Assembly: GCF_009914755.1 (NCBI RefSeq)
Contig: NC_060933.1
Length of the DNA stretch: 64,000 bases
From: the human T2T-CHM13v2.0 reference genome, Homo sapiens
Strand: one strand, 5' to 3'
Part shown: one piece after another, positions 2,180-41,872 of the stretch
Position numbering within the stretch: the stretch's first letter is position 1
Layout: each line of letters starts with the position of its first letter
Translations under genes and position numbers: made by a program
Notes under the pieces: model-generated
Database searches by the model: none
Seen by the model: the letters and a program-made list of their open reading frames with translations, nothing else
What the model was told of the DNA's origin: nothing

Positions 2180-3185
2180 AACCTGAAGAATTTCTTGTAA
2201 TATTTAATTCAAGAAAGGTCTAATAGCAACAAATTCTCTCAGTTTTTGTTATCTGAGAAAGTCTTTATTTCTCCTTCACTTTTGAAAGATAATTCCACAG
2301 GTTCCAGAATTCTAGATGCATGGTTTTTTCCTCTCAACACTTTTTATATTTCATTCCACTCTTCTTGCTAGCATGGCTTCTATGGATAAGTTAGATGTAA
2401 TTCTTTTCTTTCCTCTTCTAGAAGGTAAAGTTTTATCCCCCCACTGGACATTTTCAAAAGTTGTTCTTTATCATTGTTTCTATAATTTAAATATAATGCA
2501 CCCAGGTGTAGCATTTTTTTCATTTATTTTGCATGTTGCTCTCTGAGTTCCTTGGATCAATGGTTTGGTGTCTAACATTAATTTCGGGGAATTTTTAGTC
2601 ATTCTTGCTTCAAATATTTCTTCTGCTCCTTTTCTTTTAATTTGTCTTCTAATATTCTTATTAAGCAAAAGTTACACCTTTTACAGTTGTCACATAGTTC
2701 CTGGATATTCTGTTCCATTTTTTCAACTTTTTTCTTCTTGCTCTTCAGTCTTTAAAGTTTCTGTAAAGACATACTCAAGCTCACTTTCTTCAGCCATCTT
2801 CAGTCTACTGTGAGCCCACCAAAAACAATCTTCATTTCTTTTATAGTGTTTTTAATGCCTGGCATTTCACTCTGGTTTTTTTTCTTAGAACTGCTATCTC
2901 TCTGCTTTCATTACCTATCTGTTATGCATGCTGTCTACTTTATTTATTAGCACCTGTAGAATATTAATCAGAGGTACTTCACATTCCCAGTTGTTCACAT
3001 TCTGAGAAAATGGAGGTGAAATTTTTAAAAATTCCCCATTGTTAATTCCAATTTCTTGTCACACCAGGTTCAATTCTAATGGGTGCTATGTCTCTTCAAC
3101 TAAGTATTTGCCTTTTAGTATGTCTTATAATTTTCTCTTGATAGGCATAATAAACTTGGTAAAAAGAACTATGGTAATTATTAAG
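2180..3185 (-). mobile_element. Old L1M ORF1 fragment
   Basis: ORF1-like peptide 2480-2668 (GAEEIFE..M..N.PKLM.DTKP.IQ). Confidence 0.7.
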
Positions 3186-3224
3186 AATTGTTGTAGTAAG
3201 ATGTGGGGGAATTTGAGACTGGAG

Positions 3225-3970
3225 TTGGGAAGGTGAACAAGAGCTGAGTAAAAAATTCTAAGAAGGCAAGTGGTGAAAGAACTGGAGCTGGAACCACTGA
3301 CTCAAGTTGAGTGACAGACTGAAGGTTATAAAAGCCCAGTTGAGCCAGGAAGAGAGAGCAGCATTAGGCCCAGGATAGGCACACACACACAGGTTGGTAG
3401 GTGACAACAGCAGTTCCCAGAAAAAGGCTGAAGGTTCAGAGCAAAAGAGTCTAGGCCCAGGAAGCTCAGTCTGTTCTTGTCCAACCTGCTAAGAGTCTGG
3501 GTGCTACTGAGCCAGTTAACCATTTAGATCAAAGCCAGCTCAATTAAATGTCTGCCTAAATGGTCATGTAACAACACAATTGTGAGTGGCCTTGAGGTCT
3601 TCCGCAGGAAAACTTAATGGAGGATCTTCAATATCCAGGAGAAGCTGGTACTGGGACCTGGAGGACTGTCAGGTGAGAGTTCCTACTCCTGACTAGTTCT
3701 GTACTTTCCATTGGTTGCCCTCAAGCTGCTGACCAATCACTGCTCCCAAGGCCCTACTTGAAATCTCATTGACTGCCCACACTCAGTCCTCACTCTGCCA
3801 TTGCTGGTGCCCAAATGTTTAAACTTTTCCTTTGTAACTTGCTGTTATTGAAAGGATTTCACCTGTATTGAAAGGATTTCACAGTAACTACTTTTAGTAG
3901 CTATTAATAGGTCCTTGATCATGAGTAGTTTCAGTAGTCTAAGAAGTTGTGAAAAGCCAGATTAAATTTA
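3225..3970 (+). pseudogene. Relaxin/INSL4-family unprocessed pseudogene remnant P1 (promoter, 5'UTR, exon-1 coding segment 3462-3672, intron start)
   Basis: Colinear with the reverse complement of RLN2 39950-39250; AGGCCCAGG-AAG replaces AGGCCCAGG-ATG; reads KLSLFLSNLLRVWVLLSQLTI*...QEKLVLGPGGLS; 211 nt to donor AG|GTGAGAGTTCC (RLN2 GTGAGAGCTCC); TAGTCTAAGAAGT 3935-3947 matches RLN2 intron 38500-38488. Confidence 0.88.
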
Positions 3971-4175
3971 AAGTACACAAGTCTTTAAAGTCTTTAATAT
4001 GTAAACAGCCATTGTTAACATCTAAGAGGATAATATCGCCATTTTCTATTATTATTATTATATTGGTTCACCAAACTAGCATATGTAACACAGCTTTGGA
4101 CATATTGCATTTAAATATTGCTTCACTTGTTCTATCTGTTTTTAAACTATTTTGAAGCAATTTTTAATATTTGCA

Positions 4176-4795
4176 TTACCAAACCAAACTTGGGTCAGCT
4201 TGACTGCCACAGCAAAGGCAAACACACACTCCTAGGCTTATAGAGAGATTAAAAAAAAAAAAAAAACAAACAAAAAGGCATTTATTGCAGAGCAGAAAAC
4301 GAGGAGAACTGGCAGGTAACATTTAAGACCAAAACTCCCTGATAGCTTACAAGCAAAAGATTGTTAAAGGCTGAGGTAAGGGGGCTCTCTAAAGTGAGTT
4401 AGGGCTGAGGAATTTCTGGAATTTCCTCATCTACTTTCGGGTTCCGGTCTGTCTGAGGTTCCATTCTGTTTGAGGTCTATGTGACAGCAATCAGCATTTT
4501 TCGTGCAGTGGTAGTCCTTGATTCTGAAAAAAATTCGAGGATATATGTCAAGATGTTACCACTAGGTTATACAGGAAACCAAACATCTTGTGACTCTAAT
4601 TTACACAAGGTTGATTGTCTAAGTTATTATTACCTTCTTGCTGAGCAGGTTATTTATTCACGTCACCAGTTGCTGGTTGCAAAGGAAGCTAGATGAATGG
4701 AATTTCCCTTGAAGGGACCCAAATCTTTCTGTATTCCCATGCTTTGAAGAGGCGATAGGGACCTGGCAGGCCCTTAAGAGGCATTCCTACTCCAT
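4176..4795 (-). mobile_element. Probable ERV-class solo LTR
   Basis: GGCATTTATTGCAG...AAGACCAAAACTCCCTGATAGCTTACAAG resembles MER4-group LTRs; family not resolved. Confidence 0.45.
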
Positions 4796-4928
4796 CCAAT
4801 ATGCAATCTCCCTCTCACTGTAAGAAAATCTGCCAAATCTCCTTCAGCAATCCACATTTTGATTCACCAACAGTAGGTAAACTAATGGTTTGCAAATGTG
4901 CTCTAATGAAAGAAATTCAGTAAGATTG

Positions 4929-5170
4929 ATAATAATAATAAAAGCTAACATTTGATACTTTTTTGCTAAATGTCAAGCATTATGCTAAATGCTTAACATG
5001 ATTTATCTAACAATTCTTACAACAATGCCACAGAGTACATATTATTGTCCCCATTTTACCAATGAGAGGACTGAGGCACAGTGAGGTGAAGCTAATTTCT
5101 TACGGTAACACAGCTAAGTGGTTGAGTAGGAATATAAACCAAGCAGTCTGATTTCACAATTGCCACTCTT
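4929..5170 (-). mobile_element. MIR SINE
   Basis: MIR core CCCATTTTACCAATGAGAGGACTGAGGCACAG. Confidence 0.8.
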
Positions 5171-5641
5171 CAAAAATTTTATACGCCTTCCTAATCAAAT
5201 TTATCTATGGAACTCCTTTCCAGCTCACATATTCCTTAAGATGTCATCATTTTATAAAATAGCTTGCTCCTTTCTTTCCATGGACCCTCCAGTAATCCAT
5301 AGTTGTCTGAATGGTATCTCTGTATAGATGAGTATAGGTCTCTTTAAGAGGTCACCACGAAGTAGAATGACATTATATACATCTGCCTCATGAAAGTGGC
5401 AGCCAGGGAGGATTTATTTTAAAGTACTTACTCGTACTAAGAGATACAGTAGCTAGTTGATAACTCATTTGAGTTTACCTATTTTGAACATACTCTGTCT
5501 TCACTTTTATCAGAAATAACTGGCTTTTCTTGAGATCCAGTTTTCTATCTATGAATAAAGATTACATGTTTCCTAGCTAATAATTTTCTGTCGCAATTCT
5601 GGGTATCTTTCTATCTATCTATATAGTCACACATCTCTTAA

Positions 5642-7023
5642 CTATGGGGAAAATGTCTCCAGGGAACTTCAGAGATATTCAGGGCAGCACCCCCACACCT
5701 CCATCACAGGTCTAGAGGCCTAGGATGGAAAAATGGTTTCGTGGGCCAGGCCCAGGGCCCCACTGCTCTGTGCAGCCTTGGGACATGATGCCCTGCATCC
5801 CAGCTGCTCCAGCTCCAGCTGTGGCTAAAAGGAGCCAAGGTATAGCTCAGGTCACTTCTTCCGAGGGTGCAAGCCCCAAGCCTTGAGAGCTTCCACAGGT
5901 GTTGGGCCTGCAGGTGTGCAGAGTGTGATAGATGAGGTTTGGGAACCTCCACCTAGATTTCAGAGAATGTATGAAAACACCTGGATTTTCAGGCAGAAGT
6001 AGGTTGTAGGGACAGAGCCCTCATGGAGAACCTCTACTAGGAACTGCAGAGGGGAAACGTAGGGTTGAAGCCTCCACACAGAATCCCCACTAGGACACTG
6101 TCTAGTGCAGCTGTGAGAAGAGGACCACCTTTCTCCAGATGCCAGAATGGTAGATCCATCAACAGTTTGCACCATAGGCCTGGAAAAGCTGCAGGCACCC
6201 AACACCAGCCCATGAAAGCAGCCTCAGGGGCTGTATTCTGCAGAGCCATGGGGGCAGAGCCGCCCAGAGCCTTGGGAGCCCACCTCTTGCATTAGCGTGA
6301 CCTGGATGTGAGATACGGAGTCAAAGGAGATTATATTGGAGCTTTAAGATTTAATGACTGCCCTACTGGGGTTCATACTTGCTTGGGGCCTGTAGCCCCT
6401 TTGTTTCGGCCCATTTCTCTTATTTGGAATGGGAGCATTTACCCAAGGCCTGTACCTGCCTTATATCTTGAAAGCAATTAACTTGTTTTTTTATGTTTAC
6501 AGGTTCATAGGCAGAAGGGACTTGCCTTGTCTCAGATGAGACTTTGGACTTGGACTTTCGAGTTAGCGCTGGAATGAGTTAAGACTTTGGGGAACTGTTA
6601 AGATGGGATAATTGTATTTTGCAATGTGAGAAGGACATGAGATTTGGGAGGGGCCGGGGCAGAATGATGTGGTTTGGCTCTGTGTCCCCCCCTAAATTTC
6701 ATGTCAAATTGTAATCCCCACACATAAGAGGAGAGATGTCATGGGAGGTGATTGGATCATAGGGTGGATTTCCCTATGCTGTTCTTGTGATAGTGAGTGA
6801 GTTCTCATAAGATCTGATGGTTTAAAAGTGTGGCACTTTCCTCCTTGCTCTCTCCTGCTGCCATGTAAGACATGCTTTGCTTTCCTTTCACCCTCTGCCA
6901 TAATTGTAAGTTTTCTGGGGCCTCCCCAGCCATGTAGAACTGTGAATCAATTAAACCTCTTTTCTTTGTAAATTACCCAGTCTCAGGTATTTCTTTATAG
7001 CAGTGTGAAAATAAACTAATACA
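5642..7023 (+). mobile_element. THE1/MSTA MaLR: 5'-truncated internal region (5642-6664) and 3' LTR (6665-7023)
   Basis: MaLR internal motifs, polypurine tract GGGAGGGGCCGGGGCAGAA, LTR TGATGTGGTTTGGCTCTGTGTCCCC...AACTAATACA; no 5' LTR. Confidence 0.88.
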
Positions 7024-7074
7024 TTGATGTAACATGAAGACAGTACTGTAATGCACCCTACCTCCTTCAGGTCT

Positions 7075-7290
7075 CTAGGCAGCACTTCCTCCCCAAAGCT
7101 TCACCCTCCTTGGTGAGAAGAGCACCGAGAGCCTCTCAGTCAGGCAGCTTGCTGTTTCCACAACTTTCCTTCCCTTGGTGAGATTCTCAGTGAGACCCTT
7201 TCAATAGAAACACATTACAAAATAAAAATCCGATCTTTACCACCACAGTAGAGTGGGGACTGAGTGTGAGCAGCCAATGGGATCTCCAAC
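7075..7290 (-). pseudogene. Relaxin-family remnant P2, intron-1 segment (homologous to RLN2 ~39140-39367)
   Basis: GGTGAGATTCTCAGTGAGAC 7177-7196 vs 39251-39270 (19/20); CAGCCAATGGGATCTC 7271-7286 vs 39350-39365 (15/16). Confidence 0.82.
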
Positions 7291-7449
7291 AGAGTGTTTG
7301 GACTGTGGTTATGACTGGTGGATGGGGCGTCTGCCCTCCAAAGATCCTGACAAGGTTGAGAAAATACAGGGGCCTCTAGAGTTGATCTTAAGTCTTAGTG
7401 AAGTATTGACTTGGGGTCTTTTTACTTTTTACAGTGGTGGGAAATCAGA

Positions 7450-7605
7450 TTCTATCAGTTTCTAGTAATTTCATACTTTCCTCTGACTCCTCTGGGCAAT
7501 TGGTTGATTGATAACAGTTGTGATTATTTAAATTGGAAATTGTATTTACCCTTAGAGATTGGAAAACACACACCCCTAGCAAACACACACACACCATAAA
7601 ATTAC
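7450..7605 (-). pseudogene. P2 upstream segment 1 (homologous to ~40330-40470)
   Basis: TTGATTG..GAGATTGGAAAACACACAC aligns to TTGATTG..GAGACTGGAGAACATACCACACAC. Confidence 0.65.
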
Positions 7606-7610
7606 AGGGG

Positions 7611-8782
7611 AGGATGATCATAATTCTGAAAGACAATCCCAAACACCATCATCCCAGTTGTTGAAATCCTGAGAGATCAAAATCTATAAAGCCAAAAATC
7701 TCAAAAATTCTAATCCTGTAAGATCAAAATCCCAAAAATATAATTCTAGGAAAAATAATATACAATTATTTAAAAGACACTTATTTACATTTTAAAGAGG
7801 GATATATCTGAAAATATAAAAATACAAGAGAACATTTTATAGGCCACACTGCACAATAAAATAGACAATAATAGCATACATACTTTTGCAAGCATGAACA
7901 CTCAGATATACCTATGGTAGTTGCATGAGTATGGGCAGATGAACTGTATTCATTTTTTTTAAAGGCCATAAAGTGAATTGTACAATGTATTTCACTATGA
8001 TTGGTGATTGTATGCACCCAGCTTTATAACTGCAATCCTCTGAAATGACATGATGTACACCTAAGTGTTTGGAGGAGAACAAGCAAAAACCATGAAGGGC
8101 CATCACATATTCAATCACTCAAAGAGCTGAAATCTTGAGAAATTTCATCTTTCACAAATGCAGATTTACAAAAAGGACATCTTTTCATTTATTGAGGAAG
8201 TTTCAGTGTTTTCACATACATGCAGAATGTTAACACACAAAGTCAGTGGTGTGATAATGGACTTTAGTGGAACCAAATTTCTGATACCCAAAGAGCAGAA
8301 GAAATGTCTATCCCAGCTCTCAGAGACCAATTTGCCTTCTGTGTTTGTTGTCTCCTAGCCCTGGGCTGATAGATTGTTGCCCACCAACACTGAGGCCAGA
8401 TCTTCTGTACATAGTCCATTGAGATTCACACACTAATCTCTTCTGGAAAAACCCTCACAGACACACCCAAAATAATACTTTGCCAGATTTCTGGATATTC
8501 CTTAATCTGGTCAAGTTGACACCTAAAATTAAGTCCACAAGACTTAATTGTCAACTTGGCAGCCACACACATCTCCTTAAACCATTCTTAAATTCCAAAT
8601 AAAAAGAATAACAAGGTAATAGTTTCATTTAATATAATGCAACTGTCCTGTGAGAGTGATTGTGGGCATTTCAGATGTTAGGGATTTTAGACATTAAGGA
8701 TTTCAACTTTAGAGATTTGTATTTTTAGGGATTCAGAATTATGGCATCCAGGATTATGTCTTTTAGGATTATGATCCAAACC
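7611..8782. mobile_element. Ricksha (MuDR-like) DNA transposon carrying an HERVL/MLT2 fragment
   Basis: Imperfect terminal inverted repeats GATCATAATTCTGAAAGAC.. / ..GTCTTTTAGGATTATGATCCAAACC; internal antisense MLT2 LTR start (GTCAAGTTGACACCTAAAATTAA) near 8510-8532. Confidence 0.8.
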
Positions 8783-9345
8783 AAAAAAACAGTAGAATTC
8801 CACAATCCAGAGAGAACACGTTGGCAACACATATTCTTGCAAAATAGTTAATACACATGATCACTTCCTGTATTCTCTGTGTGTTTTGTATGAGAAAGAG
8901 TAAATTTTTATCATTTTTAAATGTTAAACAAATCAACATAATTTTCTAGGCAATGGATGCTGTAGAAGACTATCAAATTATACATTGATCTTTTAAATGC
9001 AAAGAGGTTCAATGTTTTTACACCTGATGTGTTTGAGTTCAAAATCTACTTAGTTTAGCTCTGTTCCCACAGAAGAGTCTAATAATTTGATATAAGTTAG
9101 GATATTTCTGAAGCAAACTAGTAAATATATTAGTTCCCACTAAAAAGTATGATCTAATTTTCTGCAAATTGGAGGAAGGTTTTGTCATCATTCCTCAAAT
9201 GGTGAGCATCAGGTAACTGGTCAAATAATAACTGTTTAAAGCTAAGGGATAGTTGGAGTCATGGCTTTTAGATGTGTTTTCCCTATGGCAAGCAGTTTGG
9301 AAGAGGCTTCTCGGAACTGAGGTTTGGGAGGCACTTTTACAGTGT
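8783..9345 (-). pseudogene. P2 upstream segment 2 (homologous to ~40517-41100)
   Basis: Resumes right after Ricksha (AAAAAAACAGTAGAATTCCACAATCC vs AAAAAAAGCAGTGGAAATCCCACAATCC); 9292-9326 vs 41046-41080 match 30/35. Confidence 0.78.
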
Positions 9346-9429
9346 GAGTATCTAAGGAGAACAAGTCATTGCTTACTTAAAAATAAATTTCCCACTCTCC
9401 ATTTAATGTTGAATTTTCTTTTTAAAAAA

Positions 9430-10990
9430 TTATTTTGGGAGACTCAGCATCCAGGCTGGCATGTAAGAAGTCACTATTTCATTCTGACAATAAGGAAAAA
9501 GCTTGACAAACTGAAAAATTAACAACTCTTAGACTCATGACAGAAGTGGAAATTTAGGGCACATTTTGCCTCCAAAATTGGAGAGAGTGACAGGCAAATA
9601 CAGAGAATCACAAGTTACTAGAGAAGAAACCCATGGGCAGAAACCTCTATGGGAACCAGCACTGGGGTAGGAAACCTCAACCGTAATGAATGAATTGCTG
9701 TGGGGGGGCCCTGTGGATAATTCTAAGAATTAACGCTTCCATGGGGTCTGAGTTATAGGAGGCCTGGACAATTTTTTAACTTAAGGAGTTCTGCCAGGTT
9801 CCACAGTGAATATTTTGAAGAATATTCTAATGCTTCTGACAGAGGAGAGGAAATATAACCTTTTTGAAATATGCCAGAGTATTCTGGTCTTCTTAATAAG
9901 ACCTGACCTCAAGAGAAACTACTTTACCACAAGCTAAACTATTGGGTTGCTACTTTTTTCTAGAGCCTAACCAATGAAGAGGAAAAGATATATCCAATTC
10001 AAATGCACTCTAGCAATCCTGTCACACCTAAACAGAAAAGGTGGTCACCTGAGGAGAAGTTGTGAAGTTCTCAGTCTAGAGGGACAAACTTACTAACCAC
10101 TAAGAGCTAATAATAAGACTATGAATGCTTCCCCTTCCCCTACACCTACGCCATTACGATTCTTACTATTTGTCACAATTCCTTTTATCCATTACATTTT
10201 GTTTGATTATCACAAAGACTAAAGTAACATCAGCCCACACAGATGATAAAGGGTCAGCAAAAGAACCTTGGCAACTCAAAAAGCCACAGTGTCTTCTTAC
10301 CTCCAAATGACCACACTAGCTACCCAGCAGTTGTTCTTAACCAGGATAAAATGATTGAAATTATAGACATAGAATTAAAAGTCTGGATAGCAGTGAAGAT
10401 AATCAAGATTCAGGACAAAGTGAAACCCGAATCCAAGAAATACCAAGAATCCAATAAAATGAAACAAAAGCTGAAAAATAAAATAGCCATTTTAAGAAAC
10501 AACCAAACTAATCTAATAGAGCTGAAAAACTCACTATAAGAAGAACTTCATAATATAATTGGAAGTATTAACAGAAGAATTGACCAAGCTGAGGAAATAA
10601 ATCTCAGAGCTCAAAGACTGGTTCTTCAAATAGACTTAGTCAGAAAAAGAAAATTAAAAATTAAAAAGAATAAACAGAAGCTCTGAGAAATATGAGATTA
10701 CATAGAAAGACCAAATCTACAACTCTTTGGTTTCTCTGAAAGAGAGGGAAAGAGAGCAACCAAGATGGAAAACACATCTGAGGATATTGTCCATGAAAAT
10801 TTCCCCAACCTCACTAGAGAGAAAGACATTCAAATTCAAGAAATTCAGAGAATGCCTATAAAATACTATACAAAACAACTATCCCTAAGAAAGAGTCATC
10901 ACATTCTCCAAAGTCAATGCAAAAAAAAATATATTAAAGGCAGCTAAAGAGGAGGGACTGGTCACCTACAAATGGAACCTCATCAGGCTA
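9430..10990 (+). mobile_element. L1 fragments (old L1M 5' region, then ORF1 of an L1PB/L1PA-type element)
   Basis: ORF1-like peptides 10243-10539 and 10765-10947 (EDIVHENFPNL.RE.DIQIQEIQR). Confidence 0.75.
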
Positions 10991-11059
10991 AATATGCATT
11001 TTAACGGCACCCCACTGAGAGTAGCCCTGATCCAGATACTTTAAAGATTTTTTTCAGCT

Positions 11060-11446
11060 TGCTATAGTTTGGATGTTTGTCCTTCTAAACCTCATGTTGA
11101 AATGTGATCCCATATGTTGGAGGTAGGGCCTAATGAGAGGTGTTTGGGTCATGGGGACAGATCCCTCATAAGTAGATAAATGCCCTCCCTGAGGAGGGGT
11201 AGTGAGTGAGTTCTTGCTCTGTTAGGTCCCATGAGAGCTGGTTGTTAGAAAGAGCCTGACACTTCCCCTCTCTCTCTTGCTTCTTCTTGTCATTTGATCT
11301 CTGCACAGACCAGCTCTCTTTTACCTTCTGCCATGAGTGGAAGCAGCCTGAGGCCCTCACCAGAAGCCAAGCAGATGCCAGCACCATGCTTCTTGTATAG
11401 CCTGCAGAACCATGAGCCAAATAAACCTCTTTTCCTTATAAATTAC
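11060..11446 (+). mobile_element. MSTB-like MaLR LTR, 3'-truncated
   Basis: TGCTATAGTTTGGATGTTTGTCC...AATAAACCTCTTTTCCTTATAAATTAC. Confidence 0.8.
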
Positions 11447-12745
11447 AAGCAATGGAGAAAGGACTCCCTATTCAATAAATGGTGCTGAGGTAACTAGCTA
11501 GCCATATGCAGAAGGTTGAAACTGGACCCCTTCCTTTCACCATATACAAAAATCAACTCAAGATGGATTAAGTACTTAATGTACTTAAATGGAAAACCAA
11601 AAACTATAAAAACCGTAAAAGAAAAGCTAGGAAATGTTACTCTAGACATGAACCCTGGCAAAGATTTCTTGATGAAGACTCTTAAAGCAATTGCAACAAA
11701 AACAAAAATTGATAAATGGGACCTAATTAAACTAAAGAGCTTCTGCACAGCAAAAGAAACTATCCACAGAGTAAACAGACTACCTATAGAATGGGAGAAA
11801 ATACTTGCAAACTGTGCATCCAACAAAGGTCTAATATCCAGAATCTATAAGAAACTTAAACAAATTAACAAATGAAAGACAAAAAACCCATTCAAAAATA
11901 GACAAAGGACATGAACAGACACTTTTCAAAAGAAGACCTACATGTGGCCCACAAACAAATGAAAAAAATGCTCAACTTCACTAATCGTTAGAGAAATGCA
12001 AATCAAAACCACAATGAGTTACCATCTCATACCAATCAGAATTGCAATTACTAAAAAGTCAAAAAATAACAGATGCTGACAAGGTTGCAGAGAAAAGGGA
12101 ACTCTTATACACTGCTGTTGGGAATGCAAGTTAGTTCAGTCACTGTGAAAAGCAGTTTGGAGATTTTTCAAAGAACTTGAAACAGAACAGCCATTTGACC
12201 CAGCAATCTCATTACTGGGTATGTACCCAGAGGAGTATAAATGGTTCTACCATAAAGACACATGTACACTTATGTTCATTGCAGCACTCTCACAATAGCA
12301 AAGACATGGAATCAACCTAAATGCCCATCAATGGTGAGTTGGATAAAGAAAATGTGGTATGTATACACCATGAAGTACTATGTAACCATTAAAAAAAATG
12401 AGATCATGTACTTTTAGCAATACAGATGGACCTGAAGGCCATTATCCTAAGTGAATTAACACAGGAACAGAAAACCAAGCACTGCATGTTCTTACTTATA
12501 AGTGTGTGCGAATTATTGAATACACATGGATGGACACAAAGAAGGAAAGAAGAGACACCATGGTCTAATTTAGGATGAATAGTGGGTAAAGGATGAGGAT
12601 TGAAAAACTACATATCAGGTACTATGCTTATTACCTAGGTAACAAAATAATCTACAGCAAACCCCCATGACATACATTTTACCCATGTAACAAACCTGCA
12701 CATGCATCCCCTGAACCTAAAACTTGGAAAGAAAATAAATAAATA
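11447..12745 (+). mobile_element. L1 ORF2 C-terminus and 3'UTR (older L1PA/L1PB)
   Basis: Peptide 11516-11875 [18 protein letters not shown]...; 3' end CCCCTGAACCTAAAA + A-rich tail. Confidence 0.85.
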
Positions 12746-13517
12746 TGACACATATATAGAAAAGTAAATGGATTGAGATAGAGATACCATGCTAATACGA
12801 ATCAAAAGAAAACAGCAATAGCTATAATAATTTCAGACAGAGTAGACTTCAGAGCAAGAAATGTAACCAGTGGCCACTCAGGGATACTACATCATGATTA
12901 AGAGTTCAATTCTCCAAGAAGTCTTAACAATTCTGAACACATATGTGGCTAACAACAGAGCATCATATATGACAGGCAATGCTGATAGAACTGGAAAGAG
13001 AAATAGATTAACCCACTGTTGGAGACTTCAACATCCCTATATCAGAAATACACATATCCAATAGGCAGAAAATCATTAATAACTCAAAAACATGATAAAT
13101 CACCTGGATATAATAGACTTTTAAGACTATTTCATCTAAGCAGAGTACACATTCTTCTCAAGCTCACACAGAACATTCATCACGACAGAGCACATTCTGG
13201 GTCATAGAGTATATCTTCAATTTAGAAGAAGGGAAATCAGAGAATGTGTGCTCTCAGAACACATTGGAATTAAGATACCTGGAAAATCCTACAATACTTG
13301 GAGATTAAACAATATACTTCTAAGTAATACATGGGTCAAAGAAGAACTTTCGAGAGAAACAAAAAAAATTTTTGTTTATATTTAATGAATACATTAAAAT
13401 GAAACTAAATGAAAGCTAAATGAAAATGAAAATACCATTTATAAAAATTAGTGGGAGGCAGCAAACATATTCTTAGAGGGAAATTTATGGTATTGAATCC
13501 ATGCATTAGGAAAAAAG

Positions 13518-27862: not shown

Positions 27863-30800
27863 AGGAGGAGGATTCAAGATGGCCAAAGGAACAGCATTGG
27901 TCTGCAGCTCCCAGTGACATTGTCACAGAAGATGGGTGATTTCTGCATTTCTAACTGAGGTACCTGGTTCATCTCACTGGGACTGGTTGGACAGTGGGTG
28001 CAGCCCACGGAAGACAAGCCGAAGCAGGGCAGGGCATCACCTCAACTGGGAAGCACAAGGGGTGAGGGAATTTTCTCCCCTACCCAAGGGAAGCCATGAG
28101 GGTCTGAGCCTGAGGAACTCCGGCACAGATACTGTGCTTGTCCCATGGTCTTTGCAACCTGCAAGCCAGGAGATCCCCTCTGGTGCCTACCCAACCAGGG
28201 CCCTGGGTTTCAAGCACAAAACTGGGCGGCCAATTGGGCAGACATCAAACTAGCTGCAGGAGATCTTTTTTTTTTTTCCCCATACCCCAGTGGTGCCTGG
28301 AATGCCAGCGAGACAGAACTGTTCACTCCCCTGGAAAGGGGTGCTGAAGCCGGGAGCCAAGTGATCTGGCTTGGCGGGTCCCACCTACACAGAGCCCAGG
28401 AAACTAAGATCCACTGGCTTGAAATTCTCGCTGCCAACACAGCAGCAATCTGAGATCCACCTGGGACATTCGAGCTTGGTTGGGGGAGGGGGATCCACCA
28501 TTGTTGAGGCTTGAGTAGGCAGCTTTATGGTCACAGTGTAAACAAAGCCACTGGGAAGTTCAAATTGGGCAGACCCCACTGCAGCTCAGCAAGGCTGCTA
28601 TGGCCAGACTGCCAGATTCCTCCTCTCTGGACAGGGCATCTCTGTAAAACAGGCAGCAGCCCCAGTCAGGGGCTTATAGCATACTTAAACATCCCTGCCT
28701 GATGGCTCTGAAGAGAGCAGTGGACTTCCCAGCACAGCGTTCAAGCTCTGCTAAGGGTCAGACTGCCTCCTCAAGTGGGTCCCTGACCCCTATGTATACT
28801 GACTGGGACACACCTCCCAATAGGGGCCAACAGACATCTCATACAGGAGACCTCTGGCTGGCATCTGGGAGGTGCCCCTCTGGGTCGAAACTTCCAGAGG
28901 AAAGAACAGGCAGTAATCTTTGCTGCTCTGCAGTCTCTGCTGGTGATACCCAGGCAAACAGGACTGGGAGTGGACCTCCAGCAAACTCCAGCAGACTGGC
29001 AGCAGAGGGGGCCTGACTGTTAGAAGGAAAAGAAATAAACAGAAAGGATTAGCACACCCACTCAAAGACCCCATCTGAAGGTCGCTAATATCAAAGACCA
29101 AAGGTAGATAAATCCACAAAGATGGGGAAAAACCAGTGCAAAAGGCTGAAAATTCCAAAAACCAGAATGCCTCTCCTCATCCAAAGGATCACAACTCCTT
29201 GCCAGCAAGGAACAAAACTGGATGGAGAATGAGTTTGACAAACTGATAGAAGTAGGCTTCAGAAGGTGGGTAATAACAAACTCCTCCAAGCTAAAGGAGC
29301 ATGTTCTAACTCAATACAAGGAAGCTAAGAGCCTTGAATAAAGGTTAGTTGAATTGCTAACTGGAATAATCAATGTAGAGAAGAACATAAATGACCTGAT
29401 GAAGCTGAAAAACACAGCACGAGAACTTTGTGAAGAATACACAAGTACCAATAGCTGAATTGATCAAATGGAAGAAAGGATATCAGTAATTGAAGATTAA
29501 CTCATTGAAATAAAGAGAGAAGACAAGATTAGAGAAAAAAGAATAAAAAGGAATGAACAAAGTCTTCAAGAAATATGGGACTATGTGAAAAGACAAAATC
29601 TACGTCTGATTGGTGTACCTAAAAGTGAAGGGGAGAATGGAACCAAGTTGGAAAACACATCTCAGGATATTATCCAGAACTTCCCCAACCTAGCAAGACA
29701 GGCCAACATTCAAATTCAGGAAATACAGAGACCACCACAAAATACTCCTTGAGAAGAGCAACCCCAAGACACATAACTGTCAGATTCACCTAGGTTGAAA
29801 TGAAGGAAAAAATGTTAAGGGCAGCCAGAGAGAAATATTGGGGCAGCCAGAGAGAAAGGTCAGGTTACCCACAAAGGGAGACCCATCAGACTAACAGTGG
29901 ATCTCTCTGCAGAAACCCTACAAGCCAGTAAAGAGTAGGGACCAATATTCGACGTTCTCAAAGAAAAGAATTTTCAAACCATAATTTCATATCCAGCCAA
30001 ACTAAGCTTCATAAAGGAGGGAGAAATAAAATCCTTTACAGACAAGCAGATGCTGAGGGATTTTGTCACCACCAGACCTGCCTTACAAGAATTCCTGAAG
30101 GCAGCACTAAACATGGAAAGGAACAACTGGTACCAGCCACTGCAAAAACATGACAAATTATAAAGAACATCGATGCTATGAAGAAACTGCATCAACTAAC
30201 AGGCAAAACAACCAGCTAGCATCATAATGACAGGATCAAATTCACACATAACAATATTAATCTTAAATGTAAATGGGCTAAATGCCCCAATTAAAAGACA
30301 CAGACTGGCAAATTGGATAAAGAGTCAAGACCCATCAGTGTGCTGTCTTCAGGAGACCCATCTGACGTGCAAAGACACACATAGGCTCAAAATAAAGGGA
30401 TGGAGGAATATTTACCAAGCAAATGGAAAGCAAAAAAAAAAAAAAAGCAGGAGTTGCAATCCTAATCTCTGATAAAACAGACTTTAAACCAACAAAGATC
30501 AAAAGAGACAAAGAAGGGCATTGCATAATGGTAAAGGGATCAATTCACCAAGAAGAGCTAACTATCCTAAATATATATGCATCCAATACAGAAGAACCCA
30601 GATTCATAAAGCAAGTTTTTAGAGACCCGCAAAGAGACTTAGACTCCCACACAATAATAGTGGGAGACTTTAACACCCCACTGTCAATATTAGACAGACC
30701 AACAAGACAGAAAATTAACAAGGATATTCAGGACTTGAACTCAGCTCTGGACCAAGCGGACCTAATAGACATCTACAGAACTCTGCACCCCAAATCAAAA

Positions 30801-33800
30801 GAATACACATTCTTCTCAGCACCTCATCGCAGTTATTCTAAAATTGACCACATAATTGGAAGTAAAACACTCCTCAGCCAATAGAAAAGAATGGAAATCA
30901 TAACAAACAGTCTCTCAGACCACAGTGCAATCAAATTAGAACTCAGGATTAAGAAACTCACTCAAAACCACACAATTACAAAAAAACTGAACAATCTGCT
31001 CCTGAATGACTACTGAGTAAATAATGAAATGAAGGCAGAAATAAAAATGTTCTTTGAAACCAATGAGAATGAAGACACAAAGTAACAGACTCTCTGGGAC
31101 ACATTTAAAGCAGTGTGTAGAGGGAAATTTATAGCACTAAATGCCCACAAGAGAAAGCAGGAAAGATCTAAAATTGATATCCTAATATTAAAAATAAAAG
31201 AACTAGAGAAGCAACAGCAAACAAATTCAAAAGCTAGCAGAAGACATGAAATAACTAACATCAGAGCAGAACTGAAGGAGATAGAGACATGAAACACCCT
31301 TCAAAAAATCAATGAATCCAGGAGCTGGTTTTTTGAAAAAACTCAACAAAATAGATAGACCGCTAGCCAGACTAATAAAGAAGAAATAGAGAAGAATCAA
31401 ATAGACACAATAAAAAATGACATAGGGGATATCACCACTGATCTCACAGAAATACAAACTACCATCAGAGAATACTATAAACACTTCCACACAAATAAAC
31501 TAGAAAATCTAGAAGAAATGGATAAATAACTGGACACAAACACCCTCCCAAGTCTAAGCCAGAAAGAAGTTGAACCCCTGAATAAACCAATAACAAGGTC
31601 AGAAATTGAGGCAGTAATTAATAGCTTACCAACCAAAAGAAGTCCAGGACCAGATGGATTCACAGCCAAATTCTAGCAGAGGTACAAAGAGGAGCTGGTA
31701 CCATTCCTTCTGAAACTATTCCAAACAATAGAAAAAGAAAGAATCCTCCCTAACTCATTTTATGAAGACAGCATCATCCTGATACCAAAACCTGGCAGAG
31801 ATACAACAAAAAAAGGAAATTGCAGGCCAATATCCCTAATGAACATCAATGAGAAAATCCTCAATAAAATACTGGCAAACTGAATCCAGCAGCACATCAA
31901 AAAGCTTATCCACCATGACCAAGTTGGCTTCATACCTGGGATGCAAGGCTGGTTCAACATACACAAATCAATAAACATAATCCATCACATAAACAGAACC
32001 AATGACAAAAACCACACGATTATCTCAATAGATGCAGAAAAGGCCTTCAATAGAATTCAACACCACTTCATGCTAAAAACTCAATAAACAGGTATTGATA
32101 GAACATATCTCAAAATAATAGGAGCTATTTATGACAAACCCACAGCCAATATCATACTGAATTGGCAAGAGCTGGAAGCATTCCCTTTGAAAACTGGCAC
32201 AAGACAAGGATGCCTTCACTCATCACTCCTATTTAACACAGTACTGGAAGTTCTGGCCAGGGCAATCAGGCAAGAGAAAGCAGTACAGGTATTCGAACAG
32301 GAAGAGAGGAAGTCAAATTGTCTCTGTTGGCAGATGACGTGACTGTATATTTAGAAAACCCCATTGTTTCAGCCCAAAAACCCCTTAAGCTGATAAGCAA
32401 CTTCAGCAACGTCTCAGGATACAAAATCAATGTGCAAAAATCACAAGCATTCGTATACACCAATAACAGACAAACAGAGAGCCAAATCATGAGTAAACTC
32501 CCATTCACAATTGCTACTAAGAAAATAAAATACCTAGGAATACAACTTACAAGGGAGGTGAAGTACCTGTTCAAAGAGAACTACAAACCACTGCTCAAGG
32601 ATATAAGAGAGGATACAAACAAATGGAAAAGCATTCCATGCTCGTGGATACAAAGAATCAATATCATGACAATGGCCATATTGCCCAAAGAAATTTATAC
32701 ATTCAATGCTATCCCCATCAAGCTACCATTGACTTTCTTCACAGAATTGGAAAAAACTACTTTAAACTTCATATGGAACCAAAAAAGAGCCCGCATAGCC
32801 AAGACAATCCTGGGCAACAAGGACAAAACTGGAGGCATCGCACTATCTGACTTCAAACTATACTACAAGGCTACAATAACCAAAACAACATGGTACTGGT
32901 ACCAAAACAGATATATAGATGAATGGAACAGAATGGAGGCCTCAGAAATAAACCACACATCTAGAACCATCTGATCTTCAACAAACCTGACAAAAACAAG
33001 CAATGGGGAAAGAATTCCCTATTTAATAAATGGTGTTTGGAAAACTGGCTAGCCATATGGAGAAAACTGAAACTGGACCCCTTCCTTACCTTATACAAAA
33101 ATCAACTCAAGACGGATTAAAGACTTAAACGTAAGACCTAGGGCCATAAAAATCCTAGAAGAAAACCTGGGCAATTCCATTCAGGACATATGCATGGGCA
33201 AAGACTTCATGACTGAAACACCAAAAGCAATGGCAACAAAAGCTAAAATTGACAAAAGGGATCACATTAAACTAAAGAGCTTCTGGACAGCAAATGAAAC
33301 TATCATCAGAGTGAACAGGCAACATACAGAATGGGAGAAAATTTTTGCAATCTGTCCATCTGACAAAGGCCTAATATCCAGAATCTACCAAGAACTTAAA
33401 CAACTTCACAAAAAAAAAAACCCCATCAAAAAGTGGGCAAAGGATATGAACAGATACTTCTCAAAAGAAGACATTTATGCAGCCAACAGACATGAAAAAA
33501 TACTCATCATCACAGGTCATTAGAGAAATGCAAATCAAAACCACAATGAGATACCATCTCATGCCAGTTAGAATGGCGATCATTAAAATGTCAGGAAACA
33601 ACTGATGCTGGAGAGGCTGTGGATAAGTAGGAATGCTTTTACACTGTTGGTGGGAGTGTAAATTAGTTCAACCACTGTGGAAGACAGTGTGGTGATTCCT
33701 CCAGGATCTAGAACTAGAAATACCATTTGACCCAGCAATCCCATTACTGGGCATATGCCCAAAGGATTATAAATCATTCTACAATAAAGACATTTGCACA

Positions 33801-34263
33801 TGTGTTTATTGCGTCACTATTCACAATAGCAAAGACTTGGAACCAACCCAAATGTCCATCAATGATAGACTGGATTAAGAAAACGTGGCACATATACACC
33901 ATGGAATACTATGCAGCCATAAAAAAGGATGAGTTTATGTCCTTTGCAGGGTCATGGATGAAGCTGGAAACCATCATTCTCAGCAAACTATCACAAGATC
34001 AGAAAACCAAACACCACATGTTCTCACTCATAAATGGGAGTTGAACAATGAGAACACATGGACACAGGGAGGGGAATATCACACACCGTGGCCTGTTTGG
34101 GGGTGGGGGGCTAGGGGAGGGATAGCATTGGAGAAATACCTACTGCAGGTGATGGGTTGATGGGTGAAGCAAACCACCATGGAACATGTATATCTATGTA
34201 ACAAACCTGCACGTTCTGCACATGTAACCAAGAACTTAAAGTATAATTTTTAAAAAAGAAAAA
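27863..34263 (+). mobile_element. Full-length, inactivated L1PA6/7-like LINE-1 (ORF1 ~29122-30162, ORF2 30227-34044)
   Basis: 5'UTR start GGAGGATTCAAGATGGCC; ORF2 MTGSNSHITIL; many stops and frameshifts; TSD AAATAGACAGAACCA 27848-27862 / 34264-34278. Confidence 0.97.
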
Positions 34264-34876
34264 AAATAGACAGAACCAGTAAAATACTAAGTTGATAACT
34301 ACGTCAGTTTACTTTTCTAACAAGTGTTCATACTATTTCAGTAATTTTGCTTACAGAAATAGTTTGCAAATTCTAAAGAAGTGAACATAAATTATGTTCC
34401 TTCATTATACTATTTCTTCTGTAATATATGATATGGACTTGTTTGTTCTGTTCTATATTATGTCTATTCCTTTTTATCCTTAAAAAATAATTTACTTTTA
34501 AGTTTCTTAGACACTGGAACTGAGAACAGAACCCTAGCTTGAAAAGTACTTGAGTTCCCTTCAGACTATACTAGAAAAAAAGGAAATTAAAAAGGAAAAA
34601 AAAGCGTTTGAGTTTATATGGTCTTAACTAAATTACATTGGTTTAGTGTCCAATCCGATTGTTTGCAATGAGTATTTCAATATGACACAAAAACCTTTTG
34701 TAATCTATTAGGAAAGGTCAAGTTTTATGGCTTTATCTATATCCAATCTAAGAGTTAATATCAATAAAACATTTTGGTCCATTTCATGTAACTGGTGTTA
34801 GGTATTGTTACTACTATATGGTGTTAGGTATTGTAACAACTGTATTGTTACTACGTATGGTTAAAGCGGTAGAGGT

Positions 34877-34882
34877 TTTATT
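34877..34882 (-). other. RLN2: RLN2 distal polyadenylation signal AATAAA
   Basis: TTTATT on plus strand 100 nt beyond the proximal signal. Confidence 0.55.
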
Positions 34883-34976
34883 GTAATTTTAAGTTAACAG
34901 CATTAAAAAGAATAACACAACATAATCATGCTGTTAATAAAAAGACAAAAAGGCTTTTCAGCAAAAAAATGTGTCA

Positions 34977-34982
34977 TTTAAT
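34977..34982 (-). other. RLN2: RLN2 proximal polyadenylation signal ATTAAA
   Basis: TTTAAT on plus strand about 207 nt after the stop codon. Confidence 0.65.
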
Positions 34983-35188
34983 CACACAAAGAACATTTTC
35001 TTACACATCAAATAAAAAAATCTAAACATCAACAAAGATGTTTAGATATTCTAAGAATTGATGGGACCTAATATCTAACAAAGATTCTTAGATATTCTAA
35101 GAATTGATGGGACCTGATAGAAGCATCAGTGAAATGTCATTAAGAATATGTGTGAATATTATACGAGATGTGCACAATTAGCTTCATC

Positions 35189-35535
35189 TCAGCAAAATCT
35201 AGCAAGAGATCTTTTGGTACAACCAACATGGCAACATTTATTAGCCAATGCACTGTAGAGTTGTCTCTTTTTTCGAGAATGAGTATCCAAGCCTAAGTAT
35301 TTTAATTCTGAAGGACTGCTGTCTGCGGCTTCACTTTGTCTATTGCGAATAAGTTTCTTAAATTCTTCAAAGAGAAGACTGGAATCTTTTAATACAGGTA
35401 CATGTTGTTGTAGCTGTGGTAATGCTGGCTGCATCTCAGACAGGGTTAACTTCAGCTCCTGTGGCAAATTAGCAACAAATTCTGACATCATATTTATGGT
35501 TTCTGTATCTTTGTTGATGAAGGATGGCACAATTT
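35189..35535 (-). CDS. RLN2: Relaxin-2 coding exon 2: C peptide and A chain
   Basis: Acceptor TTTAACAG|AAATTGTG at 35536/35535; [10 protein letters not shown]...[31 protein letters not shown] at 35191-35189; 211+347=558 nt = 185 aa + stop. Confidence 0.99.
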
Positions 35536-38500
35536 CTGTTAAATTTAAAAAAAAAGGTGTATGTGAGGGTATATTCATGTCAAAGAGCACTCAGAAAAAC
35601 TATGAATGTTTGCATAGACAAAAAAGCATTGCCTCAGTATAAATTAAACATTGAAACAAAATAAGCAAGCATCCTAATATCTAAACACTTAGCTTACTTA
35701 CAGTTGGACACCTTAAAGTACCATAATTTTACCAAGGCTCTGCTTTACCCCATTGGTCCTCTCTCGTCTCTCTTCATGATCCCCTCAGTGCTTTTATCAT
35801 AGTACTTTTGACTCTCCCTGACATTAATCTGTCATCTTTCTGAAGTCATGTAAGTCACTGAAAACAGTTTGACCACAGCTAGTGGTCATTTTCTTGGATT
35901 CTTCTTAGTTAAGTCATTTTCTTCCATTGCTATGATTTATGATATTATGAGTTGTAATAGTAACCCTTGAAAAAGATATTACTTTAAGCTATTGAATATT
36001 TCATGGTGGGAAGTTACTCCTGGAGGATAAAGTTAAAGAGGCAGAATTTCCAACACCTCTGATCTAATCAGCAGGAGAAAGAAGTCTCTGATGTTCCTTA
36101 ACCATCTATTTAACAATTTGTCTTCCCCAGAGTATTTACTCCAAAACAATAGTATTTTATATGAAAGAGAGAAGTGGGTTAAAAGAACACTAACCAAAAA
36201 TCACTGATTTAAGAAGAGATTTGTATCTGCTGTGGAGTATGTGTACTGACTAATGTTTTCTGTTTGATATTTGTTCCAAAGCTGCAGATCATGCACTATG
36301 CAAGATCTGTGTGTCTCCTAGGAAGGGAGCCTGTTCTTACACAGCATCCCAGGCTGGCCAAATGTGAAGGCTGGGACTTGGGCTGGGAACCTGCTGGACA
36401 CCCAGCTGACATCTTCCTCCATCTTTGCACCCATTCAGCTCAGTTGAACATTCATTACCTGTTTCCATGTCTCTGGCACTGCCAGTTAAAAGATATAAAT
36501 TTATTTAAATGTTTCTTGCTCTCAAAAAGCTTACAGTGAGTTAAACCCTCTCCTAACCTTAACTGTCCTAATTATACAACTTAATAGTTTTATTTCACAA
36601 AGAAATTAGAAACACGATGATGTTTAAATTACAGTGAAAACCCATATCAGGTCTTGCTGCTCTTCTTCCTGGACAGGAAAACTCTCCATTAACAAGGCAT
36701 TACTCTTGAAATAATGAAAATAAAGAGAAGAGGGGAGTAAATCTAAGTGCGGGAGGCAGACACCTGGTTAACCACTGATGCCTGCTGATCAGAGGAAACC
36801 ACGACCCTTCACCTAGACAGCGGTGGTTCTGGGGCTGATCATTTCCTGAGTTTTCTGGCAAGAGATTCAGTTGTTCCCCTTCTAGCCAACAAAAAAATTC
36901 AACAATTGGAGTTTGACAGAGGAATAAAAAAAAACAAACTGTAGTATTTCATCCTTCCTCCCAACACTCTCCCTCATTCATGTTCTAAACTGGAAATGAC
37001 AGATGAGAATTTATATCGTTTTTGGTTAAATGAGAGGTTTTGGCATTTCCCCTCAGTAAGACATCCTAAGTTTAATTCAATTTCATCATAAAAACCTCTC
37101 TTTGATCCAACCTAAACTTTCTGTAGTTGGGGCCTTATTAAATACTGAAAGAAGCTGATGGTAATTTTCTATATACTTAAAGCCAGTTAAATGAGTCAGC
37201 CAAAACAGTTATAGTTTGTATTAGGTTTGTTCATAGGCTGTGTATTTTATACTTTTATTAAAATTATATTTTTAAACCTGTTTTGAAATATTTCATAATC
37301 CATAACACCTTTAGCTATGGAACCTAGGCTCAAAGAAAATATTCTGTCTGAATTCATACAAATACCCTTATTCACTTATTATTTTGGATGTAAATCTCAC
37401 TAAAATAGGCCTCTTCTGGTTTAAAGGGTATCTTATTTTTAAAAGGGATGCAGTGAATATGATTTTAGCACATATTGTAGGATGAAATGGATGGCTAACA
37501 ATGTAATAATGTGGAAGCAAATAGCAACTACCTAACAGTAGAAGTCTGAAAACTCAAATTAATCACAAATTACTGACATGTACTTCCAAAACGATTCCTA
37601 CCTAGTAATGGTAAACATTTGTCTTAATCTCCACCTGCAGGCAATATTTTCTGAGGTTACTTTCAGTTAAATTATACTGCACATCAATAAAGAAAATTCT
37701 TTAAAAATACTTTGTAATCTCATGTCTCTTCAAAGGAAATAAAAATGTAGCCATATCTATATACAAATGTGCTTAATGAAGTATTTTCAGCAACAATTTA
37801 GAAATAAACTAAATATCCACCAAAGAATCCTTAAGTGTATGTGGCAGATTTATGACAAAAAATACTACACAGGAATTTCAAATTGTGTTTTGGGATAATA
37901 ACAATGTGAGAAACTGCTCAAAGTATAATGGTGAGTGAAAATGCAAAAGATATATACATATACCTATCCAAATGTTAACATTTCTTTCCACTTACTTGTT
38001 TAATATAATTTCATTTTCTCATAAAATTCACATATACTTTTCAAAGTCCTTAATATCTACGAGTGCTTCTCATTTTTCACGCTGCATTAATGTACATTTG
38101 TCTTTAATAGGAGCATTACTACTTTTATAGTCAGAAAATGTGGAATAATAAAGCAAATGCAATGCAATCCGGTCTTCTCTACTTTTTATCACTAAATTCC
38201 TAGACGTTGTGGTATTTTTGTACTAATGTTATACAAAAGTCATGTAAAAACTGCCATTAAATAAATCAAACTCTAACAATGTAGAAAAGTAAATAACTTT
38301 AGAAGCATACTTTAAATCTCATAAAAGAGAAGTAAATGTATTTCTGTTAGAGTCATTTATATATAGTATATGCATATAGCCTATAAAATTTAGTTGCGGT
38401 TTATCATAAATTACATGTCATACTAATACAAAACACTTAGTATTTGCAACTGCGGTTACTTTCTCTGAATTTAATATGACCCGTTACACTTCTTAGACTA

Positions 38501-40449: not shown

Positions 40450-40450
<1 letters not shown>

Positions 40451-41178: not shown

Positions 41179-41872
<694 letters not shown>

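What the first reader, a model, noticed from the sequence alone, without database searches (positions are those of the whole stretch)
3225..3970. Hidden relaxin/INSL4-family pseudogene (P1) with preserved exon-1 architecture, opposite strand to RLN2
Seen: 3225-3880 aligns continuously to the RLN2 promoter, 5'UTR, exon 1 and intron start. The start context AGGCCCAGG-ATG has become AGGCCCAGG-AAG (3462), so no ORF is called. The segment from there to the donor GT (3673) is 211 nt, phase 1, exactly as in RLN2. It reads KLSLFLSNLLRVWVLLSQLTI*IKASSIKCLPKWSCNNTIVSGLEVFRRKT*WRIFNIQEKLVLGPGGLS. B-chain C47-G48 (TGC GGC) appears as TTC CGC, W52 as TAA, and Q59-E60 is kept. Known: the signal peptide resembles INSL4 (MASLFRSYLPAIWLLLSQLL), and INSL4 lies opposite to RLN2 in this cluster. 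Inference: this is a dead additional member of the cluster. A 20-bp tandem duplication (3846-3882) marks a ~700-bp intronic deletion, after which homology resumes at RLN2 ~38550. No exon 2 was found.
Basis: partly seen in the sequence, partly recalled or inferred. Interest (0 to 1): 0.85.

Follow-up and report, generated by a model that had tools for sequence, protein, structure and literature searches.

The report
Dead relaxin-family gene fragment near RLN2
This is the decayed front end (promoter, first exon, start of the intron) of an ancient extra relaxin/INSL4-type hormone gene, one of several unannotated fossils in the human chromosome 9 relaxin cluster; it is real, cannot encode a hormone, and matters mainly for the history of the gene family.

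Summary
Window 3199-3867 (+) aligns collinearly to the promoter, 5'UTR, exon 1 and intron start of RLN2, RLN1 and INSL4. Blastn gives E 1.5e-30. A profile built without this copy gives E 3.2e-90. The ATG is AAG at 3462. Start position to donor GT (3673) is 211 nt, as in RLN2. The frame has two stops, and the RLN2 B-chain Cys47 position reads Phe. It is not a dispersed repeat: genome-wide it matches only three places, all in this cluster.

It is a fragment. No exon 2 turned up anywhere in 174 kb. Homology ends at a junction at 3865/3866 with a 17-nt duplication. The claimed resumption at RLN2 ~38550 is not supported.

It is old. K2P to RLN2 is 0.56, against 0.54 for INSL4-RLN2. It falls outside an INSL4+P3 clade (AU test). 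Three further relics exist:
- P2, 52 kb upstream, 89% identical over 224 bp, carries an INSL4-style exon 2.
- P3 is a complete two-exon INSL4-like pseudogene.
- P1b (7024-7320, minus strand) is an intron piece.

Verdict: a genuine unprocessed pseudogene relic in a birth-and-death cluster. Interest is modest.

The parts
3199..3461 (+). P1 relic of the 5' flank, promoter and 5'UTR. The RLN2 RefSeq exon-1 start at 39807 maps to about 3329. A TATAAAAG motif sits at 3327-3334.
   Evidence: for the alignment to RLN2 39950-39672. for the motif. The left edge abuts a dispersed repeat reaching about 3211.
3462..3672 (+). P1 exon-1 coding relic, 211 nt, phase 1. ATG has become AAG. In-frame stops lie at codons 22 (3525-3527) and 52 (3615-3617). 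In the ungapped register the RLN2 Cys47-Gly48 position reads Phe-Arg.
   Evidence: No Pfam Insulin match for the two stop-free pieces tested. tblastn with the RLN2 exon-1 peptide does not find it at E<=10.
3673..3865 (+). P1 intron-1 start: donor GT at 3673-3674 and the best-kept block at 3753-3853. It is 89% identical to P2 together with the last 31 nt of exon 1 (3642-3865).
3846..3882 (+). Junction. A 17-nt exact direct duplication (3846-3862 and 3866-3882, period 20) marks the end of homology to every other copy.
   Evidence: for the sequence. for the alignment: P2, RLN1/2, INSL4 and P1b continue and P1 diverges. Not listed by TRF.
3883..4270 (+). Unique DNA to the right of the junction, with no detectable relation to any relaxin-family intron or exon. 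Not shown to belong to the relic.
   Evidence: Marginal excess only.
7024..7320 (-). P1b: a separate old intron-1 fragment on the RLN2 strand, convergent with P1, without exon 1 or exon 2.
   Evidence: 7118-7286 <-> 39190-39365, 72%, E 4.8e-18. (E 1.4e-22 with a profile that excludes it)..

Best explanation
P1 (3199-3867, + strand) is the 5' remnant of an unprocessed pseudogene. It descends from an ancient tandem or inverted duplicate of the relaxin/INSL4 progenitor in the chromosome 9p24 relaxin cluster.

Shown:
- It keeps the promoter region, 5'UTR, a 211-nt phase-1 exon 1 and the donor site in the same order and spacing as RLN2.
- It has no start codon, two in-frame stops and no recognisable B chain.
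- It has almost no CpG left.
- It has no exon 2, so no A chain. It therefore cannot make a relaxin-like peptide.

Inferred:
- The lineage split from RLN and from INSL4+P3 about as long ago as INSL4 split from RLN, at or before the placental ancestor.
- It then died.
- A second duplication, roughly contemporary with or somewhat older than the RLN1/RLN2 duplication, gave P1 and P2.
- P1 then lost everything beyond 3865 at a break repaired with a short templated duplication. P2 lost everything upstream of the last 31 nt of exon 1, at a boundary with a dispersed repeat.

This is the birth-and-death evolution already proposed for this locus.
For: - Homology: (E 1.5e-30 by blastn; E 3.2e-90 with a profile that excludes P1).
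- Not a repeat: the genome-wide search gave 3 candidates, all 3 scored, all in the cluster (P1 itself, P2, RLN1). The flanks gave 1069 and 245 candidates.
- Disablements.
- CpG: 1 in 666 nt (obs/exp 0.03), against 30 in 720 nt (0.51) in RLN2.
- No exon 2: exon-2 profiles find 5 of 5 expected or new copies (RLN2, RLN1, INSL4, P2, P3) and nothing near P1 at E<=10 in 174 kb.
- Age: K2P for P1-RLN2 is 0.56, P1-INSL4 0.62, P1-P3 0.64, INSL4-RLN2 0.54 and P1-P2 0.128 (n=224). RLN1-RLN2 is 0.06-0.12 outside a converted tract.
- Tree: (INSL4,P3) has 98.7/99 support with P1P2 outside, and both alternatives are rejected by AU.
- P2 supplies the missing half. Its exon 2 at -48129..-47801 has the same C-peptide gaps relative to RLN1/2 as INSL4 and P3, and the A chain sits at the same place.
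- Literature: INSL4 is stated to derive from a duplication in the placental ancestor, and RLN1/RLN2 from one at 29.6-44.2 Ma (PMC3971578; passages and section 8 read).
Against: - At protein level nothing is recognisable. tblastn with the RLN2 exon-1 peptide misses P1, and Pfam finds nothing in 2 of 2 P1 pieces tested. Family assignment therefore rests on DNA homology and position.
- No outgroup could be aligned. INSL6 gave no hit at E<=1 in the fetched part, so the tree is unrooted, and the long P1P2 branch (0.47) may distort it.
- Dating assumes rough rate constancy, and CpG decay inflates distances.
- P1 and P2 share only 224 bp, and no larger duplication block surrounds them. 'Two full copies, each truncated' is therefore an inference.
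- No other mammal could be examined.
- Whether P1 is transcribed or acts as a regulatory element was not testable.
Confidence: 0.85

Rival explanations
1. P1 and P2 are not two truncated copies. They are the two halves of one ancestral gene, separated by a single duplicative rearrangement whose staggered breakpoints left the 224-bp overlap (3642-3865 = -48916..-48688).
For: The two relics are complementary. P1 has the promoter and exon 1. P2 has the last 31 nt of exon 1, a short intron and exon 2. They overlap by only 224 bp at 89% and lie on the same strand. No other ~88% block surrounds either one.
Against: The order on the + strand is 3' half, then INSL4, then 5' half. A simple insertion does not give that order. 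P2's left edge coincides with the end of a dispersed repeat, and P1's right edge is a separate junction. Independent truncations explain the data equally well. Nothing here tells the two apart.
Confidence: 0.25
2. P1 is a young partial duplicate of the 5' end of RLN2, RLN1 or INSL4 that never was a gene.
For: It lacks exon 2. Partial segmental copies are common in this region: the RLN2/RLN1 block is ~91% identical over 7.6 kb.
Against: K2P to every functional member is 0.56-0.62, against 0.03-0.12 between RLN1 and RLN2. The tree places it outside INSL4+P3 and away from RLN. Its sister P2 has an exon 2.
Confidence: 0.03
3. The relic promoter has been kept or re-used as a regulatory element or non-coding RNA promoter, so the DNA is not functionless.
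For: TATAAAAG is kept at 3327-3334, and ATTGG/CCAAT-like motifs are kept just after the donor (3709-3717, 3732-3739) in most copies. The hub's RefSeq table lists an enhancer at 4176-4711, 300 bp to the right.
Against: The annotated enhancer does not overlap P1. CpG is depleted to 0.03. Overall identity of ~72% matches that of the other dead copies. No transcript is annotated here in the hub's table. No expression or chromatin data could be consulted.
Confidence: 0.1
4. The similarity is due to chance or to a dispersed repeat.
For: None beyond the low protein-level signal.
Against: E 3.2e-90 with an independent profile. Promoter, exon and intron are collinear. Only 3 of 3 genome-wide candidates match, all in the cluster.
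Confidence: 0.01

Closest known systems
RLN2 / RLN1 (human relaxin genes), promoter-exon 1-intron 1 start
   Same: Same order and spacing of 5' flank, 5'UTR, 211-nt phase-1 first coding exon and donor, with ~71-72% DNA identity where alignable. Same gene cluster.
   Different: Opposite strand. ATG lost, two stops, B chain unrecognisable, CpG lost, no exon 2. K2P is 0.56, so it is not a recent copy.
INSL4 (placentin)
   Same: Same strand. The signal-peptide relic is slightly more INSL4-like: 11 of 21 residues against 8 of 21, counted by eye. The sister relic P2 shares with INSL4 the same C-peptide gaps relative to RLN1/2 and the A-chain position.
   Different: DNA identity to INSL4 (0.59) is no higher than to RLN2 (0.61). 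The tree and AU tests exclude P1P2 from the INSL4+P3 clade. INSL4 exon 1 is 196 nt from ATG to donor, not 211 (counted from the sequence printed).
'INSL4 pseudogenes' reported in other placental mammals (Arroyo, Hoffmann, Good, Opazo, J Mol Evol 2012), and the birth-and-death model for the RFLB locus
   Same: Same idea: old paralogues of this locus survive as pseudogenes and date the duplications to the placental ancestor. I saw only the title in reference lists and how PMC3971578 summarises it.
   Different: That paper is not held. I could not see whether human relics at these positions are drawn or named there, or in Arroyo et al., Mol Phylogenet Evol 2012 (recalled, not seen). P3 rather than P1 would be the human INSL4-like pseudogene.

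Membership tests
Relaxin/insulin-like gene family, chromosome 9p24 (RFLB) cluster paralogue | Significant DNA homology to the promoter, exon 1 and intron 1 of the cluster members | tested here: met
   (E 3.2e-90 with a profile lacking P1)
Relaxin/insulin-like gene family, chromosome 9p24 (RFLB) cluster paralogue | Position inside the cluster between INSL4 and RLN2 | tested here: met
   Hub table
Relaxin/insulin-like gene family, chromosome 9p24 (RFLB) cluster paralogue | Two-exon structure with a phase-1 intron: exon 1 = signal peptide + B chain, exon 2 = C peptide + A chain | tested here: not met
   Exon 1 and the donor are present. No exon 2 within 174 kb at E<=10. The sister copy P2 has one.
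Relaxin/insulin-like gene family, chromosome 9p24 (RFLB) cluster paralogue | Open reading frame with B-chain cysteines; Pfam PF00049 Insulin domain | tested here: not met
   Start codon lost and 2 stops. 0 of 2 P1 pieces match Pfam, while the RLN2 exon translations do at E 6.7e-4 and 4.6e-7. It is a pseudogene, not a gene.
INSL4 lineage (orthologue or copy of INSL4) | Groups with INSL4 in a tree of the paralogues | tested here: not met
   (INSL4,P3) 98.7/99. AU p 0.031 for P1P2+INSL4.
Unprocessed (duplicated) pseudogene | Keeps flanking promoter and intron sequence of the parent; no poly(A) or intron loss | tested here: met
   Promoter and 193 nt of intron align
Dispersed repeat / transposable element | Many copies across the genome | tested here: not met
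   3 of 3 candidates, all in the cluster, against 1069 and 245 candidates for the flanks

The most novel reading that the evidence does not exclude
P1/P2 are the human remains of a third ancient relaxin-family lineage, distinct from RLN and from INSL4+P3. With P1b and P3, this would mean the early placental cluster held at least five or six relaxin-like genes rather than the three usually drawn (INSL6, INSL4, RLN). An intact orthologue of this lineage might still serve as an unrecognised hormone gene in some non-catarrhine mammal.
Probability: 0.2. Interest if true: 0.55.

Novelty: new member of a known kind. Interest (0 to 1): 0.33.

Why it matters
The relaxin cluster is a textbook case of birth-and-death evolution in reproductive hormones, and the timing of its duplications has been argued over for years. 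Unannotated fossils give direct markers for how many paralogues existed and when they split. P1, P2, P1b and the complete INSL4-like P3 are all absent from the gene rows the hub supplied. These relics could be lifted over to other mammals to look for a lineage in which one of them still works. For human biology the fragment itself is most likely inert.

Tried and rejected
- Protein-level detection failed. tblastn with RLN2 exon peptides found nothing at P1. Pfam found nothing in the 2 P1 pieces or the P3 A-chain piece.
- 'Homology resumes in the RLN2 intron': four tests gave nothing significant and one lenient test was marginal.
- Exon 2 near P1: not found with two profiles at E<=1 and E<=10 or with single-sequence nhmmer.
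- A larger segmental duplication around P1/P2: none. The self-comparison of 174 kb (41 hits of 450 bp or more at 82% or more) shows only multi-copy repeats (probably LINE-1) and the RLN2/RLN1 block.
- Rooting with INSL6: no DNA hit in the part fetched.
- TRF did not list the 17-nt duplication.
- Arroyo et al. 2012 (J Mol Evol) is not held.
- Five literature searches found no named relaxin or INSL4 pseudogene at this human locus. The subscription papers most likely to show one could not be read, and supplements were not consulted.
- GENCODE, RepeatMasker and cross-species alignments are not available here.

Full report
**What is there.**
Reading 3100-4300 (+) beside 40100-38400 (-) shows the similarity by eye.
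- Blastn of 2900-4600 against the window gives 3229-3517 <-> 39909-39616, 70.9% over 299 columns, E 1.5e-30. It also gives 3753-3853 <-> 39372-39273, 74.3%, E 1.5e-11.
- A local alignment strings these into one collinear path, 3229-3956 <-> 39909-39157, with 484 of 671 aligned bases identical.
- In that path the A of the RLN2 ATG (39671) falls on 3462, where P1 reads AAG. The RLN2 donor GT (39460) falls on 3673.
- Both coding segments are 211 nt.
- That register has some support of its own. The first 60 nt match at 43 of 60. The central 120 nt match at 47 of 120, a value reached by 3 of 2000 shuffles.

**More than chance, and not a repeat.**
- A profile built from RLN1, RLN2, INSL4 and P3 only finds P1 at 3202-3867 with E 3.2e-90.
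- A search of the whole assembly with 3225-3970 produced three candidates, all scored: the query itself, a place 52 kb upstream, and RLN1.
- The left flank is a dispersed repeat: 2305 to about 3211, 1069 first-look candidates. So is 4272-4802, with 245 candidates.
- P1 is thus single-copy-like cluster DNA lying between old repeats.

**Where it ends.**
- In the seven-way alignment P2, RLN1, RLN2, INSL4 and P1b continue to align with each other past the column of 3865. P1 does not.
- At that point P1 has a 17-nt exact direct duplication (3846-3862, 3866-3882), a common scar of break repair. TRF did not list it at score 30.
  - Strict local alignment scored 29, against shuffle 24.2 +/- 2.1, max 30 of 100.
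  - nhmmer with four introns gave no + strand hit in 3867-13000 at E<=10.
  - blastn and nhmmer of 3883-4250 against 174 kb gave nothing in RLN2 at E<=1.
  - Only a lenient scoring gave a marginal excess: 447 against 355 +/- 30, max 426 of 60. In the same test the opposite strand (321 against a shuffle mean of 348) and the INSL4 intron (298 against 332) scored below their shuffle means.
- I treat the claim as not shown.
- 3883-4270 is unique DNA of unknown origin.

**No exon 2, but a sister copy has one.**
I fetched chr9:5180001-5270000 and 5334001-5354000 and scanned 174 kb with profiles.

Exon-1-region copies:
- RLN2, RLN1 and INSL4 (-33679..-32859, +)
- P1
- P3 (-69060..-69736, -)
- P2 (-48919..-48528, +; only the last 31 nt of exon 1 plus intron)
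- P1b (7320-7024, -; intron only)

Exon-2 copies:
- RLN2, RLN1 and INSL4
- P3 (-71302..-71640, -; E 3.8e-45 with a profile that did not contain it)
- P2 (-48129..-47801, +)

Nothing else reached E<=10.
- P2 is 89.1% identical to P1 over 3642-3865.
- P2's exon 2 shares the same C-peptide gaps relative to RLN1/2 as INSL4 and P3, with the A chain at the same place.
- P3 reads as a decayed INSL4. ATG has become ATA and the donor GT has become GC (alignment). Exon 2 has two stops but keeps the CC...C...C pattern.

**Age and relationships.**
K2P distances over the exon-1 region:

| Pair | K2P |
|---|---|
| P1-RLN2 | 0.56 |
| P1-INSL4 | 0.62 |
| P1-P3 | 0.64 |
| INSL4-RLN2 | 0.54 |
| INSL4-P3 | 0.475 |
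| P1-P2 (n=224) | 0.128 |

- RLN1-RLN2 is 0.06-0.12 outside a converted tract.
- The seven-copy tree gives (P1,P2) 99.5/100, ((P1,P2),P1b) 82/77 and (INSL4,P3) 71.5/71.
- Concatenating the exon-1 region and exon 2, with P1 and P2 as one composite lineage, gives (INSL4,P3) 98.7/99. AU tests reject P1P2+P3 (p 0.004) and P1P2+INSL4 (p 0.031).
- The tree is unrooted because INSL6 could not be aligned.
- PMC3971578 states that INSL4 stems from a duplication in the placental ancestor, and places the RLN1/RLN2 duplication at 29.6-44.2 Ma (passages and section 8 read).
- By that yardstick the P1/P2 lineage is as old as INSL4. The P1-P2 split is of the order of, or somewhat older than, the RLN1/RLN2 duplication. 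This is an inference that assumes roughly equal rates.
- P1 has one CpG (obs/exp 0.03), against 30 (0.51) in RLN2. In the alignment, 10 of the 29 RLN2 CpGs read TG or CA in P1 and none is kept. This fits long neutral decay.

**How it works.**
It does not work as a gene. There is no start codon, no open frame, no B-chain signature, no Pfam Insulin match (0 of 2 pieces) and no A-chain exon. The mechanism of origin is ordinary:
1. Local duplication.
2. Loss of function.
3. Partial deletion.
4. A later local duplication.

One puzzle is unresolved. P1 and P2 keep complementary halves that overlap by only 224 bp, with no larger duplicated block around them. Either there were two full copies, each truncated, or one gene was split by a duplicative rearrangement. 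I could not tell which.

**Known or new.**
- The hub's RefSeq table lists no gene or pseudogene at P1 or P1b. Between INSL6 and INSL4, where P2 and P3 lie, its within-100-kb neighbour list names only those two genes.
- Five full-text searches found no paper naming such relics in human.
- The two 2012 papers most likely to show them are not in the library (the other is recalled only). GENCODE could not be checked.
- The concept of old paralogues differentially retained in this locus is established. These particular copies appear to be unannotated members of that kind.

Noticed in passing
outside the window: window coordinates -71640..-69060, minus strand (chr9:5198361-5200941; loci L014/L004): P3: a complete two-exon INSL4-like pseudogene about 10 kb upstream of INSL6, absent from the hub's list of neighbouring genes. 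ATG has become ATA and the donor GT has become GC. Exon 2 is 73% identical to INSL4 exon 2, with two stops and the A-chain CC...C...C pattern kept.
   Followed up: partly
outside the window: window coordinates -48919..-47801, plus strand (chr9:5221082-5222200; locus L006/L002): P2: the sister of P1, 89% identical over 224 bp. It has the last 31 nt of exon 1, a short intron holding a ~300-bp multi-copy insert that I take for an Alu (-48403..-48105), and an INSL4-style exon 2 relic. Its left edge coincides with the end of a dispersed repeat.
   Followed up: partly
window 7024-7320 (-): P1b: an old intron-1 fragment of yet another relaxin-family copy, convergent with P1 and 3.1 kb away. It is 72% identical to RLN2 39190-39365. 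Neither exon is present.
   Followed up: partly
window 38111-39581 (-) versus RLN1 at window coordinates 73279-74749: RLN2 and RLN1 are 100% identical over 1,471 bp, covering most of the B-chain coding part of exon 1 and 1.35 kb of intron 1. The rest of the ~7.6-kb duplicated block differs by K2P 0.05-0.12. This looks like a recent gene-conversion tract.
   Followed up: partly
window 3709-3717, 3732-3739, 3768-3776, and the matching RLN2 stretch about 39425-39340: Three ATTGG/CCAAT-like motifs just downstream of the exon-1 donor are kept in most of the seven copies, including dead ones. The block 3753-3853 is the best-conserved part of every copy. In RLN2 it borders alternative exons listed by the hub (39187-39356).
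   Followed up: no
window 30181-41809 versus window coordinates 64424-76942: The RLN2/RLN1 segmental duplication is visible as blocks at 86-91% identity, with an offset of about 34-35 kb.
   Followed up: no
window 4176-4711: The RefSeq 'enhancer' in the hub's table straddles the end of the unique stretch (to about 4270) and an A-rich tract (4251-4276), and runs into an old dispersed repeat that starts near 4272.
   Followed up: no
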